A stretch of DNA of 64,000 nucleotides from Escherichia coli O127:H6 str. E2348/69. Lineage in GTDB: Bacteria > Pseudomonadota > Gammaproteobacteria > Enterobacterales > Enterobacteriaceae. Numbering within the stretch: the first letter of the stretch is position 1; each line of letters starts with the position of its first letter. Below are positions 12,001 to 18,000 of this stretch, piece by piece. A program made the position numbers. The DNA lies in NCBI RefSeq assembly GCF_000026545.1, contig NC_011601.1; one strand, written 5' to 3'.

Positions 12001-15000
12001 TGATGCAAAAAGGCGGGCGGGCAGCCCGCCAGGCCCGGATGTTCATCAGTTACAGCGAAGTCAGCATAAAAAATCCCGACAACAGCGGCCAGGCGCTCCC
12101 GCTCACGTATGTCTGTTGCCGGGAGCAGGCAGAGGACGGCGCCTGCTGGCATCTGCTGACGTCAGAAAAAGTGGCGAGTGCCGCCGATGCGCGACGTATC
12201 GTCAGCCATTACGAGCGACGCTGGCTGATAGAGGAATACCACAAGGCGTGGAAAAGTGGTGGTACATGTGTGGAATCGCTGCGAATGCAGACCCGGGATA
12301 ACCTCGAGCGCATGGTGGTTATCAAGGCGTTTATCGCGGTGCGGGTGCTGGGCCTGCGGCAGGGCGGTATCAGTGAAGAAACACAAAATGACAGCTGTGA
12401 GAAAATACTGACGCCGACAGAGTGGAAACTGCTGTGGGTTAAGCTGGAAGGAAAACCGCTTCCGTCACAGATGCCGACACTGAAATGGGCCTGTCTGAAA
12501 CTGGCGAAACTGGGGCGATGGCATGACAGCAAACGCACCGGTCGCCCCGGTTGGGTAGTCATGTGGGATGGCTGGTTCAGACTTCAGGATATGGTTGAGG
12601 GTTACCTGGTGATGAAGTCTCTTGATCAGGAGATCTGATCAAGAGACAGAGCTAGGCTGGGGGTTCCGGAAAGCTTTCAGCTTTGAGCCAGTTATTAAAA
12701 CCCCTTTTGATTTGTTAAAACACCTTGCGGTCTGGCAACTGCAAGTGTCAAACAAGAAATCAAAAGGGGGTCCCAATGGGGAACGAAAAGAGCTTAGCGC
12801 ACACCCGATGGAACTGTAAATATCACATAGTATTTGCGCCAAAATACCGAAGACAGGTGTTCTACAGAGAGAAGCGTAGAGCAATAGGCTGTATTTTGAG
12901 AAAGCTGTGTGAGTGGAAAAGTGTACGGATTCTGGAAGCTGAATGCTGTGCAGATCATATCCATATGCTTGTGGAGATCCCGCCCAAAATGAGCGTATCC
13001 GGCTTTATGGGATATCTGAAAGGGAAAAGCAGTCTGATGCTTTACGAGCAGTTTGGTGATTTGAAATTCAAGTACAGGAACAGGGAGTTCTGGTGCAGAG
13101 GGTATTACGTCGATACGGTGGGTAAGAACACGGCGAAGATACAGGATTACATAAAGCACCAGCTTGAAGAGGATAAAATGGGAGAGCAGTTATCGATTCC
13201 CTATCCGGGCAGCCCGTTTACGGGCCGTAAGTAACGAAGTTGGATGCAAATGTCAGATCGTGTGCGCCTGTTAGGGCGCGGCTGGTAAGAGAGCCTTATA
13301 GGCGCATTTGAAAAACCTCCGGCTATGCCGGAGGATATTTATTGTTTTTCTTTACTTTCATTTTCTGTCGGCGGTGACGGAGACATACATCAGATGGAAA
13401 AAATCACAACAGGTGTGTCATACACCACGTCAGCGGTGGGGACGGGATACTGGTTACTGCAGCTGCTGGACAAAGTCTCTCCGTCCCAGTGGGTGGCAAT
13501 AGGTGTGCTGGGGAGTCTGCTGTTTGGCCTGCTGACGTATCTGACAAACCTTTATTTCAAGATTAAAGAAGATAAGCGCAAGGCTGCGAGAGGTGAATAA
13601 TGCCTCCATCATTACGAAAAGCCGTTGCTGCTGCTATTGGTGGTGGGGCTGTTGCCATAGCGTCTGTGCTCATCACTGGTCCGAGTGGTGACGATGGCCT
13701 GGAAGGTGTCAGCTACATACCATACGAAGATATCGTTGGCGTATGGACTGTATGTCACGGACACACCGGAAAAGACATCATGCCCGGTAAAACGTATACC
13801 GAAGCAGAATGCAAAGCCCTCCTGAATAAAGACCTTGCCACGGTCGCCAGACAAATAAACCCGTACATCAACGTCGATATACCGGAAACAACGCGCGGCG
13901 CTCTTTACTCGTTCGTTTACAACGTGGGCGCTGGCAATTTCAGAACATCGACGCTTCTTCGCAAAATAAACCAGGGCGATATCAAAGGCGCATGTGATCA
14001 GCTACGGCGCTGGACATACGCTGGCGGTAAGCAATGGAAAGGGCTGATGACTCGCCGTGAGATTGAGCGTGAAGTCTGTTTGTGGGGGCAACAATGAGCA
14101 GAGTAACCGCGATTATCTACGTTCTGGTTATTTGCCTCATCGTTTGCCTTTCATGGGCTGTTAATCATTACCGTGATAACGCCATCGCCTACAAAGAGCA
14201 GCGCGATAAAGCCACATCCATCATCGCTGATATGCAGAAGCGGCAACGTGATGTAGCAGAACTTGACGCCAGATACACAAAGGAGCTTGCTGATGCTAAT
14301 GCGACTATCGAAAGTCTCCGTGCTGATGTTTCTGCTGGGCGTAAGCGCCTGCAAGTCGCCGCCACCTGTGCAAAGTCAACGACCGGAGCCAGCGGCATGG
14401 GCAATGGAGAAACCCCAGGACTTACAGCAGATGCTGAACTCAATTATTACCGTCTCCGAAGTGGAATCGACAGGATAACCGCGCAGGTTAACTACTTGCA
14501 GGAGTACATTAGGACGCAATGCCTTCGATGATAGCGATAATTTTCCCATTATCTTTCATATGCGTGATTTTAGTTAGTTTTAGTCGCAACACGAATAAAA
14601 CAGAGAACCACCCGCTATACGAGTGGTTCTGATTTACACTTTTGAAACTAAAAGCTAAATACTTGAGCAAGAACAGCTAACGCTGCGCAAAAAGCAGCCC
14701 GTTTATTCCATTTACTTTGTATTTCAATGGCTTTAAAACAACCCAGTGATGAGAAACTGCCTTGTTCCGTTTTTGGTGGGTGTTCTTTGGAAGATGCAAA
14801 ACATGAAATAATCCAAAAAATGGCGGAAAAAATTCCAAAAATTATTGAAGGCAAATGATGCTCTTTCAAAAACTCCATGACTTAACTCTCTTAAAAGTTG
14901 CTAAACATCGCTCGCAAACAAGAAAGAAAAGTTCTGTTGCGAGCACTCCACAATTTAAACGCCACACAAGCAGCTATTAGGTGGACGGTTCCAAGATTGC

Positions 15001-18000
15001 TATCAACTGCCACCCGAATACCGTCAAAACTTGACGTCCAACCAAGAATTATTGAGTTGTAAACTCAACGCAATGATCTGGTTGGTATAAATGTGACATA
15101 TGTCATGAATCGACTAGTTGAGATAGTCAAGATGGGCTTGCTTGACATCATCACCACAACCGGAGCCAACAATGGCAGATTGCGTTACCCAGATTTGATA
15201 AAGGCATTTTAGCCTGACATAACTATGCACTGTATCGTCGCCGTATTCCCGCATCAACAGAGACCACAGCCCGAGAGGGAGACTCCTCTGCGCGAGTGTG
15301 CGGGGATAATCAAAAACGATACACACCGGGGTTTACCGTGTTAACGGAGCGCGGCGTTGTCCCCTCATGGTCGCTGGTCCGGTGCGATGGTGGAAGAAAC
15401 CGGACGATGTGTTACCTCGCAAGCTCTGTTATGTCATGTGTCTGATTTGTGATTTAAGTCGGATAATTGTCATTGCCATTAAGCAGAGGATTGATGACCG
15501 ACAGGGCTGCATTGTTAGAATAAGACTTATTCTTATCTATGCCGGGAATAAAAATGAAAAGAAATCTTCCGTTAATTATTTTGTTGTCTTCTTTGGTTAT
15601 GGGCTGTACGCAACATAAAACAGATATGCCTCGACAGTTGGTTAAGGCATTACCACAATATCCGGCCTATGCCGCGGCAAATTATATAAAGGGACGGGTT
15701 GATGTGAAGTTTGATATTGGTGCTGATGGTACTGTCACCCGAATTGAGTTTATCCGTTCAGAGCCGCACCATCTGTTTGATGAGCAGGTTGTAAAGGCGA
15801 TGGCAAAATGGCGATTTGAGAAGGACAAGCCGCGTAAAGGCGTGAAGAAAACATTTATCTTTAGTCCTTCAGCACCCTGATTATTTTATCAGAAGTTAAT
15901 TATCACTCTGTTGCTATTCAGTACATCCCTGCAGGGTAAAGTCTTGTTTCGCCGGATATGAAGATGAAATATTGTTAGAAGACAGTAGCTACCGGTTCCT
16001 GTAACCGAACGTTCATTTCTCGTTATTTTTCATGCTGGCCGGGCGCAGGTGCTTTGCATCTGTTGCCAGCCTTCTCCTGCAGGCTTCAATAACCCATGCC
16101 GAAAAATTACCCGATCCCTTACGTTCAAGGGCAATATGGATTTGATTAATCATCTGGTTTGGGAAGCTTTATTTTTTGATGACATTGTGTTTTTCCGTGT
16201 TCAGTGCTGCTGATTTGTATTGTCTTAAGATGTCTTTACGTTAAGTTGACACAGATCAATTAATGCATGACTTGGACAAAATTGATTATTTGTCGTGGTT
16301 TTATGGTGTACGTGGGATGTGTGATGGTATTTATATAAATGATAATTATTATCATTTTATTGGGTCCTTTCCGGCGATCCGGCAGGCTACGGGGCGGCGA
16401 CCTCGCGGGTTTTCGCTATTTATGAAAATTTTTAGGGAAAAATCAGATCCGTTCTTCTTTTTTTAACTGTTTGATTATCAATAGAATTTTAAAAATATAA
16501 AAGGATCTGACAAAGGCTGTTTTTGTTAGAAAACGCCATTTTCAGATCCTTTCTGGTTCCCGGGGGAGTGTATGAACGTCAATAAGAAAAAACTGGCCGA
16601 TATTTTTGGCGTTGATGTCAGGACCATCACCGCCTGGCAGAGTCAGGGGTTACCACTAGTTTCTGGTGGAGGGAAAGGGACTGAATCAGTTTTTGATACA
16701 ACTGCTGCCATTCAGTGGTATGCGCAGAGGGAAGCTGATATTGAAAACGAAAAACTCCGTAAAGAGATCGAGGATTTGAGGGCTGCCAGCGAATCAGACC
16801 TTCAGCCCGGCACCATTGATTACGAACGTTACCGACTGACGAAGGCACAGGCCGATGCACAGGAGCTGAAAAATGCTCGTGAGGAAGGCCTTGTCCTCGA
16901 GACGGAGTTATTTACCTACATCTTTCAGCGAGTGGCACAGAATATATCAGGGATCCTTGTCCGTGTCCCTCAGACACTGCAGCGTAAATACCCTGATATA
17001 TCACCCGCACATCTTGATGCTGTGAAAACTGAAATCGCGAAAGCATCCGATGTGGCTTCTGAAGCCGGTGAGAATGTGCGCAGGTGGATTGATGATTTCA
17101 GACGAACTGAGGGCGGCTAATTCTGCAGGAGCGATAGCAACCGGCCTCCTTGCGCTAAAAATTCCTGTCCCTCTGACGACAGTTCAGTGGGCAGATCGAC
17201 ATTATTACCTTCCGAAAGAGTCATCTTACACCCCGGGGCGGTGGGAAACACTGCCGTTTCAGGTTGCCATCATGAACAGCATGGGGAATGACCGGATCCG
17301 CACTGTTAATCTGATTAAATCTGCCCGTGTTGGTTATACAAAGATGTTGCTGGGAGTGGAGGCTTATTTTATTGAGCATAAATCACGCAACAGCCTTCTT
17401 TTCCAGCCCACGGATTCTGCTGCTGAAGATTTTATGAAATCTCATGTGGAACCCACGATCAGGGATGTGCCGGTTTTACTCGATCTTGCACCGTGGTTTG
17501 GGCGTAAACATCGTGATAATACCCTCACGCTGAAACGCTTTTCATCGGGCGTCGGTTTCTGGTGCCTGGGCGGCGCTGCCGCCAAAAACTACCGTGAAAA
17601 ATCCGTGGACGTGGTCTGCTATGACGAACTTTCCTCGTTCGAGCCGGATGTCGAAAAAGAGGGCTCGCCAACCCTGCTGGGGGATAAGCGTATTGAGGGG
17701 GCGGTGTGGCCAAAATCCATTCGCGGCTCGACGCCTAAAATCAAAGGCACCTGCCAGATCGAAAAAGCGGCCAACGAGTCGGCGCATTTCATGCGTTTTT
17801 ATGTGCCCTGCCCGCACTGTGGGGAGGCGCAGTATCTGAAATTTGGCGATGAGTCCACGCCTTTTGGGCTTAAATGGGAGAAGGACAGTCCCGAAAGCGT
17901 TTTCTACCTCTGTGAACATCATGGCTGCGTGATCCATCAGTCTGAGCTTGACCAGAACAACGGGCGGTGGATCTGTGAAAACACGGGCATGTGGACCCGT

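What the first reader, a model, noticed from the sequence alone, without database searches (positions are those of the whole stretch)
14540..15330. AT-rich block after Rz with a perfect 12-bp palindrome
Where lambda carries bor, this ~800 bp has only weak ORFs (76 aa at 14648-14878 on the minus strand) and a perfect palindrome TGACATATGTCA (15092-15103) next to a TATAAAT element, which looks like an operator/promoter.
Basis: seen in the sequence. Interest (0 to 1): 0.3.

Follow-up and report, generated by a model that had tools for sequence, protein, structure and literature searches.

The report
Prophage accessory gene using dead-terminase promoter
The AT-rich block after the lysis genes is a small backward-facing accessory-gene cassette for a 76-residue membrane protein; its promoter region matches the mapped pid promoter of phage P22 and sits inside a dead terminase gene fragment, and the palindrome is a chance-level piece of that old coding sequence.

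Summary
The features are real. The palindrome TGACATATGTCA lies at 15094-15105, 2 bp from the stated position. It is not unusual: the window holds 7 perfect 12-bp palindromes against about 16 expected.

The block is a mosaic of three parts:
- **14532-14917:** a rare AT-rich segment with a genuine minus-strand gene of 76 aa. It is predicted to be a two-helix membrane protein, has dN/dS 0.19 against a Citrobacter homolog, and ends in a strong terminator.
- **14907-15171:** a decayed fragment of a Terminase_2 small-terminase gene (codons 1-89). It is 83% identical to the P22 segment that carries the experimentally mapped pid promoter and its 174-nt 5'UTR.
- **15174-15217:** the last 14 codons of a rha gene.

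By alignment, the P22 transcription start maps to window 15038 on the minus strand, with -35 TTGCGT and -10 AATTCT. This predicts a 160-nt leader running into the 76-aa gene.

The palindrome is the old codons V-T-Y-V-M, centred at -61.5. It is imperfect in P22 and absent from intact terminase genes. It resembles a CRP site, but such matches occur at chance frequency, and a P22 fragment that kept it was inactive.

Verdict: this is a pid-type accessory-gene ("moron") cassette with different cargo. The operator idea is unsupported. In IMG/VR, 89 of 91 intact terminase genes of this type abut a divergent, highly variable cargo gene.

The parts
14604..14630 (-). Rho-independent terminator of the accessory-gene cassette: a 12-bp stem with a 3-nt loop, followed by the tail CUGUUUUAUU
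   Evidence: terminator scan, minus strand; folding energy -19.6 kcal/mol, z = -5.1, and 0 of 200 shuffles fold as well.
14648..14878 (-). 76-aa cargo gene (WP_157778920.1), a small protein predicted to be a helical-hairpin membrane protein. Function unknown.
   Evidence: ORF and annotated. Homologs. dN/dS 0.185 against the C. sedlakii homolog and two hydrophobic segments (residues 9-28 and 60-76). phrog_14357 at E 1.3e-6. BLASTP E 2e-6 to the 92-aa family. Family alignment with invariant H8, S11, G15, W22 and Q54-S55-K56. AlphaFold model with helices 2-31 and 44-73, pLDDT 80.6.
14879..15038 (-). Predicted 160-nt 5'UTR of the cargo gene, antisense to the first ~45 codons of the dead terS. An RBS-like AAGAGAG lies 7 nt before the ATG. 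The predicted TSS is at 15038.
   Evidence: Inferred by homology. The P22 TSS (NC_002371.2 nt 40,880 = L002 2624; PMC8835761) maps to window 15038 in alignment A4. Not measured in this prophage.
15045..15073 (-). Predicted core promoter homologous to P22 Ppid: -35 TTGCGT (15073-15068), a 17-bp spacer, and -10 AATTCT (15050-15045). P22 has TTGCTT and AATCCT.
   Evidence: Alignments. In P22 the up-mutations C-182A and C-183A fall in this -10 box. The same elements lie on the antisense strand of all intact terS genes sampled.
15094..15105 (.). Perfect 12-bp palindrome TGACATATGTCA, centred at -61.5 from the predicted TSS. It sits within the 22-mer AAATGTGACATATGTCATGAAT (15089-15110), which resembles a CRP site (TGTGA-N6-TCAtg).
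   Evidence: It corresponds to the old terS codons V-T-Y-V-M. CRP-core matches of at least 8/10 number 26 in the window against 27 +/- 5 in shuffles.
14907..15171 (+). Pseudogene fragment of a Terminase_2-type small terminase (terS), codons 1-89 of about 171-187. The start codon is lost (ATG to ATC at 14907), there is an in-frame stop at 15060-15062, and residues ~27-44 are scrambled.
   Evidence: tblastn of intact terS proteins against window 14946-15164 gives 60% identity at E 1.7e-23. It has 70-75% DNA identity to annotated intact terS genes in about 196 E. coli genomes and in phage phiES15. The P22 counterpart hits PF03592 at E 8.6e-11. phrog_51 matches are collinear.
15172..15179 (+). Start codon and first bases of a truncated orf80 (DUF2560) gene, with its GGAG ribosome-binding site at 15162-15165. 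Homology to P22 ends here.
   Evidence: orf80 is intact in P22 and in L034.
15174..15217 (+). Last ~14 codons and the stop codon of a rha-family gene, followed by a widely conserved spacer that runs up to the TonB_C lipoprotein gene
   Evidence: 96% identity to E. coli RM10466 over 15174-15600. The annotated Rha CDS there ends at the position equivalent to window 15217.

Best explanation
The block is a prophage accessory-gene ('moron') cassette read against the late operon. The order on the minus strand is: promoter, about 160 nt of leader, a 76-aa two-helix membrane protein gene, then a strong intrinsic terminator. Its promoter and leader lie inside the decayed 5' third of a Terminase_2-type small-terminase gene. 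That same fragment, in phage P22 and prophage BTP1, carries the experimentally mapped weak promoter Ppid and the long 5'UTR of the pid gene. Here the cargo is a different gene. In the ancestral arrangement, still intact in a Citrobacter sedlakii prophage, the cargo gene starts 26 bp from a working terS and points away from it, so its promoter has to sit inside terS. When another packaging module (lambda-like Nu1/A here, gene 3 in P22) replaced that terS, the first ~270 bp survived. I infer this was because they carry the cargo gene's promoter and leader. The TATAAAT and the palindrome are inherited terS codons (G-I-N and V-T-Y-V-M) that now lie at -48 to -67 upstream of the predicted start. 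The palindrome most likely has no dedicated operator function. Shown here: the anatomy, the homologies, the pseudogene status, purifying selection on the ORF, and the terminator. Inferred: that the promoter fires in this prophage and that the ORF is expressed in the lysogen. Unknown: what the protein does. My guess is a prophage-expressed inner-membrane factor that acts on the host envelope or on incoming phage.
For: The mosaic was mapped. The terS remnant is supported. Homology to the P22 pid upstream region, and mapping of the published TSS, -10 and -35 onto window 15038, 15045-15050 and 15068-15073, come. BTP1 annotates pid next to the same segment, and pid is one of the few genes highly expressed in the BTP1 lysogen (PMC7067206). 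The cargo ORF is real. In C. sedlakii its homolog is divergent from an intact Terminase_2 terS with 26 bp between the start codons. The terminator is strong. The IMG/VR sample generalises the arrangement. Of 91 intact terS loci with enough flank, 89 have a divergent ORF of at least 50 aa starting 3-30 bp from the terS ATG. These ORFs fall into 20 or more unrelated families. All these terS genes carry TTGCG[TC]-17-[AG]AT[TC]CT on the antisense strand. Three different cargos sit behind the same remnant: pid, the 76-aa gene, and another in L034/L045. For the palindrome: chance frequency, derived from codons, imperfect in P22.
Against: No transcript data exist for this prophage, so the TSS is transferred by homology only. 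The -10 (AATTCT) matches 3 of 6 consensus positions, and the consensus scan did not call the promoter. In P22, activity needed DNA between -70 and about -176 from the TSS (Ppid338 active, Ppid232 inactive). The window keeps homology only to -141, so the promoter may be weaker or dead here. A promoter-like site (TTGAAA-17-AATAAT, 10 of 12 matches) lies inside the ORF and could only produce a truncated message. The ORF family has few members and no known function. An ISEc13/IS200 insertion upstream of the lysis genes suggests the prophage is decaying.
Confidence: 0.65

Rival explanations
1. The palindrome is a working class I CRP site. cAMP-CRP would bind AAATGTGACATATGTCATGAAT, centred at -61.5, and activate the weak terS-embedded promoter, tying cargo expression (pid in P22, the 76-aa gene here) to carbon limitation.
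For: The centre lies exactly 61.5 bp from the homology-mapped TSS, the classic class I spacing (established knowledge; lac P1). The left half-site TGTGA and its AAA flank are perfect and the right half matches 3 of 5. Both half-sites are kept in P22; the only difference falls in the N6 spacer. Compared with the closest intact terS (TGCGA...TCCTG), the two substitutions in the core both move towards the CRP consensus. BTP1 pid rises 14-fold from early exponential to early stationary phase in LB (81 to 1110 TPM), against 3-5-fold for its neighbours, and is lower in glucose minimal media (Table S5 of PMC7067206).
Against: Core matches of at least 8/10 occur 26 times in the window against 27 +/- 5 in shuffles, so the sequence alone carries no weight. 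All remnants share the site by descent, so there is no independent conservation. The P22 fragment Ppid232 kept the whole 16-bp core, ending 1 bp beyond it, and had no activity. Intact terS genes drive the same slot without such a site. The authors attribute pid induction to copy number. The spacing was noticed after the fact.
Confidence: 0.15
2. One reading: a plus-strand promoter using TATAAAT (an extended -10, TGGTATAAAT) starts transcription inside the palindrome, which acts as operator for a phage or host repressor. It would drive the downstream genes (orf80 in P22; here the TonB_C lipoprotein gene).
For: TGGTATAAA is a good extended -10 (TGn plus 5 of 6 matches), read directly from the sequence. 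The motif is conserved in P22, in all remnants and in many intact terS genes.
Against: There is no usable -35, and the scan found no plus-strand site here. The motif is explained by the codons L-V-G-I-N of terS. In the BTP1 lysogen, orf80 (13-36 TPM) tracks rha (7-34 TPM), so no independent promoter is apparent. In the window the downstream reading frame is an 8-codon stub, and the next gene is 440 bp away with its own promoter-like site at 15494-15521. The palindrome has no second copy.
Confidence: 0.07
3. The whole block is inert recombination debris between the lysis and packaging modules. The promoter is dead and the 76-aa ORF is no longer expressed in this defective prophage.
For: Three pseudogene fragments (terS, orf80, rha) lie side by side. 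The promoter is weak by consensus. Part of the upstream DNA required in P22 is missing. The complete block occurs in only 10 of 5426 complete E. coli genomes. IS elements disrupt the region upstream.
Against: The ORF is intact with dN/dS 0.19 and keeps every invariant residue of its family. The terminator is intact. The segment from -37 to -141 is 100% identical in three different contexts and 95% identical to P22. The protein cluster is seen on 586 contigs.
Confidence: 0.13

Closest known systems
The pid moron locus of Salmonella phage P22 and prophage BTP1 (Cenens et al. 2013, PMC3573128; Wolput et al. 2022, PMC8835761)
   Same: Same place in the genome, between the lysis genes and the packaging genes, and read against the late operon. 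The promoter region and most of the leader are homologous (83% over 262 bp, about 95% upstream of the -35). The architecture is the same: a weak promoter, a leader of 160-174 nt, a small ORF, and an intrinsic terminator.
   Different: The cargo is unrelated: an 86-aa soluble Pid that derepresses the host dgo operon, against a 76-aa two-helix membrane protein. The -10 is AATTCT instead of AATCCT. The palindrome is perfect here and imperfect in P22. orf80 upstream is truncated and replaced by a rha 3' end. Nothing has been measured for this locus.
Terminase_2 (PF03592) small terminase subunits of enterobacterial prophages (e.g. WP_044704358.1, WP_001218995.1, phiES15 gp028)
   Same: Window 14907-15171 is collinear with codons 1-89, at 60% protein and 70-75% DNA identity.
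   Different: It is not a gene. It has no start codon, an internal stop and a scrambled stretch, and it lacks the C-terminal half. The working terS of this prophage is a lambda Nu1-type gene at 16572-17120.
Lambda bor and other morons downstream of Rz (Juhala/Hendrix concept: promoter + gene + terminator inserted between phage genes)
   Same: Position after Rz, opposite orientation, lower GC than the flanks, own terminator, and a small envelope-associated product.
   Different: No sequence relationship to Bor. The promoter is not brought in with an insert; it is borrowed from the antisense strand of a phage structural gene.
Class I CRP-dependent promoters (lac P1 type)
   Same: A TGTGA-N6-TCAnn motif centred at -61.5 from the inferred start.
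   Different: The match is at chance level, and binding and dependence are untested. The published truncation data for P22 argue that the site is not sufficient.

Membership tests
pid-type moron locus (P22 Ppid architecture) | Located between the lysis genes and the packaging genes and transcribed against the late operon | tested here: met
   The ORF and terminator are on the minus strand between Rz (ends 14531) and Nu1 (16572).
pid-type moron locus (P22 Ppid architecture) | Promoter homologous to Ppid, with -35 and -10 boxes at the mapped positions | tested here: met
   Alignments A1, A4 and A5 show TTGCGT-17-AATTCT against TTGCTT-17-AATCCT, with no indel between the palindrome and the TSS.
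pid-type moron locus (P22 Ppid architecture) | Transcription start about 170 nt upstream of the ORF (long 5'UTR) | not testable with these tools
   The TSS is predicted at 15038, giving a 160-nt leader. No transcript data were available for this prophage.
pid-type moron locus (P22 Ppid architecture) | Rho-independent terminator after the ORF | tested here: met
   (-19.6 kcal/mol, z = -5.1).
pid-type moron locus (P22 Ppid architecture) | Encodes Pid (86 aa, phrog_16546) | tested here: not met
   The cargo is an unrelated 76-aa protein (phrog_14357). Pid hits phrog_16546. The alignment diverges at the ORF.
Terminase_2 small terminase (PF03592) | Significant similarity to the family | tested here: met
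   tblastn E 1.7e-23 to residues 15-89. The P22 counterpart hits PF03592 at 43 bits, above the 26.1-bit cutoff. The window's own ORF pieces give no Pfam hit.
Terminase_2 small terminase (PF03592) | Intact full-length reading frame | tested here: not met
   The start codon is lost, a stop lies at 15060, and the frame is truncated at codon 89. It is a pseudogene fragment.
CRP binding site (class I activation) | Match to TGTGA-N6-TCACA beyond chance | tested here: not met
   The core matches 8 of 10 positions. There are 26 such sites in the window against 27 +/- 5 in shuffles. TGTGA-N6-TCA occurs 6 times against 2.2 expected, window-wide.
CRP binding site (class I activation) | Centre at -61.5 (or -71.5, -82.5, -92.5) from the TSS | tested here: met
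   The centre is at 15099.5 and the inferred TSS at 15038, a distance of 61.5. The TSS is inferred by homology.
CRP binding site (class I activation) | CRP-cAMP binding and crp-dependent expression | not testable with these tools
   There is only indirect, ambiguous expression data from BTP1 and an adverse truncation result in P22.
Operator of a phage repressor | Repeated related sites, or conservation as a dyad in relatives | tested here: not met
   A single copy with up to 2 mismatches in 64 kb. The dyad is broken in P22-type phages and absent from intact terS genes.
Lambda Bor lipoprotein | Sequence similarity to Bor, or a lipoprotein signal | tested here: not met
   Pfam and NCBIfam scans of the 76-aa protein give no Bor hit. 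No lipobox is visible in the sequence.

The most novel reading that the evidence does not exclude
Terminase_2-type terS genes of enterobacterial temperate phages carry, on their antisense strand about 170 nt into the gene, a built-in weak promoter. It would serve as a portable expression platform for a hypervariable divergent cargo slot. Cargo genes would be exchanged at the terS start codon. When the cassette moves or the packaging module is replaced, the first ~270 bp of terS travel or persist with it. This would explain two puzzling features of P22 pid. The 'exceptionally long 5'UTR' is the antisense of terS codons 1-58. The 'eroded Pribnow box' is held by the terS codons for R-I-A. In phages with an intact terS, the leader would also be a perfect antisense RNA to the terS ribosome-binding site and start codon. 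It could then damp leaky packaging-gene expression in lysogens or carrier cells.
Probability: 0.45. Interest if true: 0.55.

Novelty: new variant of a known kind. Interest (0 to 1): 0.35.

Why it matters
For this window, the result turns an 'empty' AT-rich gap with a suspicious palindrome into an annotated unit: a conserved small membrane-protein gene of an EPEC prophage with a predicted start, leader and terminator. It also removes a false operator lead.

More generally, the P22 pid locus is one of the best-studied accessory genes of a model phage. The two pid papers I read (PMC3573128 and PMC8835761) do not use the word "terminase", and none of the papers I consulted reports the origin proposed here.

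On the present evidence, its promoter and unusually long leader are the antisense strand of a dead terminase gene. The same arrangement, with an intact terminase, flanks at least 20 unrelated cargo families, most of which gave no Pfam hit among the ten tested. That offers an evolutionary explanation for the odd features of pid. It also gives a simple rule for finding prophage-expressed accessory genes, and a testable case of a promoter embedded in an essential phage gene.

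Tried and rejected
- **RNA families and tRNAs.** An Rfam scan of 13000-17000 at E up to 1 gave no hit. 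A tRNA/tmRNA scan of 14400-15600 found none. No known RNA family is present.
- **Function of the 76-aa protein.** Pfam gave only a sub-threshold Tmemb_14 hit. NCBIfam gave nothing meaningful and PADLOC gave nothing. All homologs are 'hypothetical'.
- **Other copies of the palindrome.** A search allowing up to 2 mismatches found none. The local repeat search found only short chance pairs and the terminator stem.
- **Consensus promoter scans.** The scan did not pick up the Ppid-equivalent in the window, or anything in the intact terS loci L005 and L007. This fits a weak promoter but gives no independent support.
- **L094 and L097 as diverged copies.** I tried them for a constraint test, but they are identical to the window across the block, so they were uninformative.
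- **L008 (an E. coli assembly).** It looked like a third ORF variant, with an extra T inside the palindrome. It differs from the window only by single-base indels, probably assembly errors, so I discarded it as evidence.
- **Literature.** Searches for a prior description of the terS remnant or of a terS-adjacent cargo slot found nothing in the pid papers or the epsilon34 genome paper. Some automatic annotations of P22-like phages do label the fragment 'terminase small subunit'.
- **Other regulators.** From memory I compared the palindrome with the LacI/GalR, Cra, GntR/DgoR, LexA and FNR consensus sites. None fits. This was not tested with tools.

Full report
**Origin of the window**

Positions 14532-15540 are 100% identical to the chromosome of EPEC strain E2348/69 and four other E. 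coli genomes. Only 10 of 5426 complete E. coli genomes carry the whole stretch. The annotation there runs: holin, lysozyme RrrD, a lysis protein (Rz), a 76-aa hypothetical protein on the opposite strand, a TonB-family protein, DUF3950, then lambda-type small and large terminase.

**Check of the observation**

- GC falls to 0.34-0.43 between about 14400 and 15200, against about 0.50 on either side.
- The 76-aa ORF is at 14648-14878 on the minus strand.
- The palindrome TGACATATGTCA is at 15094-15105, 2 bp from the stated position. TATAAAT is at 15086-15092.
- The palindrome is not unusual. The window contains 7 perfect 12-bp palindromes, where random sequence would give 15.6.
- No second copy with up to two mismatches exists in the window; 3.0 are expected by chance.

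**The block is a mosaic of three pieces**

(a) *14532-14917.* This piece is found only in the ten genomes above. It holds the ORF and a strong intrinsic terminator on the minus strand at 14630-14604. The terminator folds at -19.6 kcal/mol, z = -5.1.

(b) *14918-15179.* This piece is 83% identical to the segment of phage P22 that lies just upstream of orf80.

(c) *15174 onward.* This piece is 96% identical to the last 44 bases of a rha-family gene plus the spacer that precedes the TonB_C lipoprotein gene in about 1900 E. coli genomes.

**Piece (b) is a dead terminase gene**

- The P22 counterpart contains an unannotated 62-aa ORF. It matches positions 1-29 of Pfam Terminase_2 at E 8.6e-11, above the gathering score.
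- The window segment aligns at 70-75% DNA identity with annotated, intact small-terminase genes in about 196 E. coli genomes and in Cronobacter phage phiES15.
- tblastn with three intact proteins aligns window 14946-15164 to residues 15-89 at 60% identity, E 1.7e-23.
- The fragment has lost its start codon (ATG to ATC at 14907). It has an in-frame stop at 15060 and a scrambled stretch, and it ends at codon 89. There it is joined to the ribosome-binding site and ATG of orf80.
- The working terS of this prophage is the Nu1-type gene at 16572-17120.

GGT ATA AAT encodes G-I-N, and GTG ACA TAT GTC ATG encodes V-T-Y-V-M. Intact genes read A-T-Y-V-L at that place and are not palindromic: TGCGACATACGTCCTG or TGCAGAATATGTACTT. 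P22-type remnants have TGACACATGTCA, which is imperfect.

**The same P22 segment has been studied experimentally**

Cenens et al. (PMC3573128) found the pid gene on the opposite strand between orf25 and orf80. Wolput et al. (PMC8835761) reported the following:
- a weak promoter whose -10 box AATCCT lies 181-186 bp upstream of the pid ATG, with up-mutations C-182A and C-183A;
- a TSS at P22 nt 40,880, from dRNA-seq of the identical BTP1 locus;
- an 'exceptionally long' 174-nt 5'UTR;
- a Rho-independent terminator.

In my alignments the TSS maps to window 15038 on the minus strand. The -10 maps to 15050-15045 (AATTCT) and a -35 to 15073-15068 (TTGCGT, with a 17-bp spacer). There is no indel up to the palindrome. 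Downstream of that point the window has about 160 nt of leader, an RBS-like AAGAGAG, the 76-aa ORF and the terminator. The architecture is that of pid, but the cargo is unrelated: homology stops at the terS start.

The two pid papers do not use the word 'terminase', and the pid promoter paper does not mention remnants or pseudogenes either.

**The cargo gene is real**

- A Citrobacter sedlakii homolog is 74% identical, with dN/dS 0.185 at dS 0.87.
- The protein matches phrog_14357. It aligns with an 89-97-aa family from Enterobacterales and keeps all invariant residues.
- It has two hydrophobic segments and is modelled as a helical hairpin, pLDDT 80.6.
- No library gives a function.

**The ancestral arrangement survives in C. 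sedlakii**

There the homolog is divergent from an intact Terminase_2 terS, with 26 bp between the two start codons. terL and portal genes follow. A promoter for the cargo gene cannot fit in 26 bp, so it must lie inside terS. The Citrobacter terS carries TTGCGT-17-AATCCT on its antisense strand, at the place of the P22 promoter.

**The arrangement is general**

A scan of IMG/VR with a conserved 19-mer returned 120 loci.
- 106 hits lie in an intact terS of this type. All of them carry TTGCG[TC]-17-[AG]AT[TC]CT on the antisense strand.
- 91 of these had enough flanking DNA to examine. In 89 of them a divergent ORF of at least 50 aa starts 3-30 bp from the terS ATG.
- These ORFs fall into at least 20 unrelated families. 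Of the ten families tested, eight gave no Pfam hit and none gave a PADLOC hit.
- Nine loci carry the remnant. All nine have the TGTGAC...GTCATG version.
- Two loci (L034, L045) have the remnant, with a third cargo, followed by orf80, orf59c, two more divergent genes and an intact terS in the same phage.

I read this as a variable cargo slot that uses a promoter embedded in terS. The first ~270 bp of terS persist after module replacement because they carry that promoter and leader. The persistence argument is inference.

**What the palindrome does**

It is centred at -61.5 from the inferred start. Its 22-mer, AAATGTGACATATGTCATGAAT, has a perfect CRP half-site with flank, and 3 of 5 matches in the other half. 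BTP1 pid rises 14-fold into early stationary phase in LB. This makes a class I CRP site an attractive idea.

Four points count against it:
- Matches of this quality occur at chance frequency: 26 in the window against 27 +/- 5 in shuffles.
- All remnants share the site by descent.
- Neighbouring late genes also rise 3-5-fold in the same conditions.
- The P22 fragment Ppid232, whose primer starts at TCATGACATGTGTCAC and so retains the whole core, had no promoter activity. Ppid338 was active.

I therefore rate the palindrome as most probably a by-product of decayed coding sequence. CRP is a minority hypothesis at about 0.15.

In BTP1, orf80 is expressed no higher than rha.

**Limits**

The promoter is weak by consensus. 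The TSS is transferred by homology. Part of the upstream DNA required in P22 (beyond -141) is replaced here by the rha fragment. The protein's function is unknown.

**Verdict**

This is a real but ordinary feature for this window: a pid-type moron cassette with new cargo, built on a terminase pseudogene. The palindrome-as-operator reading is not supported. The more general observation, a terS-embedded antisense promoter serving a hypervariable cargo slot, is the part worth following up.

Noticed in passing
IMG/VR loci L009-L128 (e.g. L010, L014, L011, L019): A hypervariable divergent cargo slot abuts Terminase_2-type terS genes. In 89 of 91 loci an ORF of at least 50 aa starts 3-30 bp from the terS ATG on the other strand, and these ORFs fall into 20 or more unrelated families. 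Examples are DUF2158 and proteins of 92, 111, 182, 78, 143, 144, 174 and 192 aa, most of those tested having no Pfam or PADLOC hit.
   Followed up: partly
L034 7520-10541 and L045: One phage carries both the terS remnant and an intact terS. The order is Rz, unknown cargo, terS remnant (100% identical to window 15012-15179, with the perfect palindrome), intact orf80 (DUF2560), orf59c, two divergent small ORFs (one DUF2158-like), intact terS, terL.
   Followed up: partly
window 11265-13234: An ISEc13 (IS4-family) transposase gene and an IS200C tnpA sit immediately upstream of the holin gene. They lie between the late regulatory region and the lysis cassette, so the prophage is probably defective for late transcription.
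   Followed up: no
window 15539-15880 (+): A 113-aa lipoprotein-like gene with a TonB C-terminal domain (PF03544, E 2.7e-15). It has its own promoter-like site with an extended -10 at 15494-15521. PHROGs labels the family 'Rz-like spanin' (phrog_1267), which looks like a misnomer. The gene and its upstream spacer occur in about 1900 E. coli genomes.
   Followed up: partly
window 15218-15538: A spacer of about 320 bp, in part GC-rich, between the rha fragment and the TonB_C gene. It is conserved at 90-96% in about 1900 E. coli genomes and is unannotated everywhere I looked. It gave no Rfam or tRNA hit. Function unknown.
   Followed up: partly
window 14869-14841 (-) and L007 3010-3038 (+): A good sigma-70-like site (TTGAAA-17-AATAAT, 10 of 12 matches) lies inside the first 12 codons of the 76-aa ORF and is kept in the Citrobacter homolog (GATAAT). 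It could only yield a 5'-truncated message. It may simply reflect the codons F-L-K-E-H-H.
   Followed up: no
L002 (P22) 2488-2676 and records OP265889.1, PP921804.1: P22 reference annotations leave the 62-aa terS fragment unannotated, while some automatic annotations of P22-like phages call it 'terminase small subunit'. The two pid papers read here do not use the word 'terminase'.
   Followed up: yes
L008 (E. coli assembly UARW01000010.1) 2690-3300: The same block as the window, but with six single-base indels, including an extra T inside the palindrome and frameshifts in the 76-aa ORF and neighbouring genes. These are most likely assembly errors. They produce a spurious 74-aa 'homolog' (P0003).
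   Followed up: partly
window 16013-16153 (-): A small DUF3950 gene on the minus strand between the TonB_C gene and Nu1, which may be another accessory gene in the same inter-module region.
   Followed up: no
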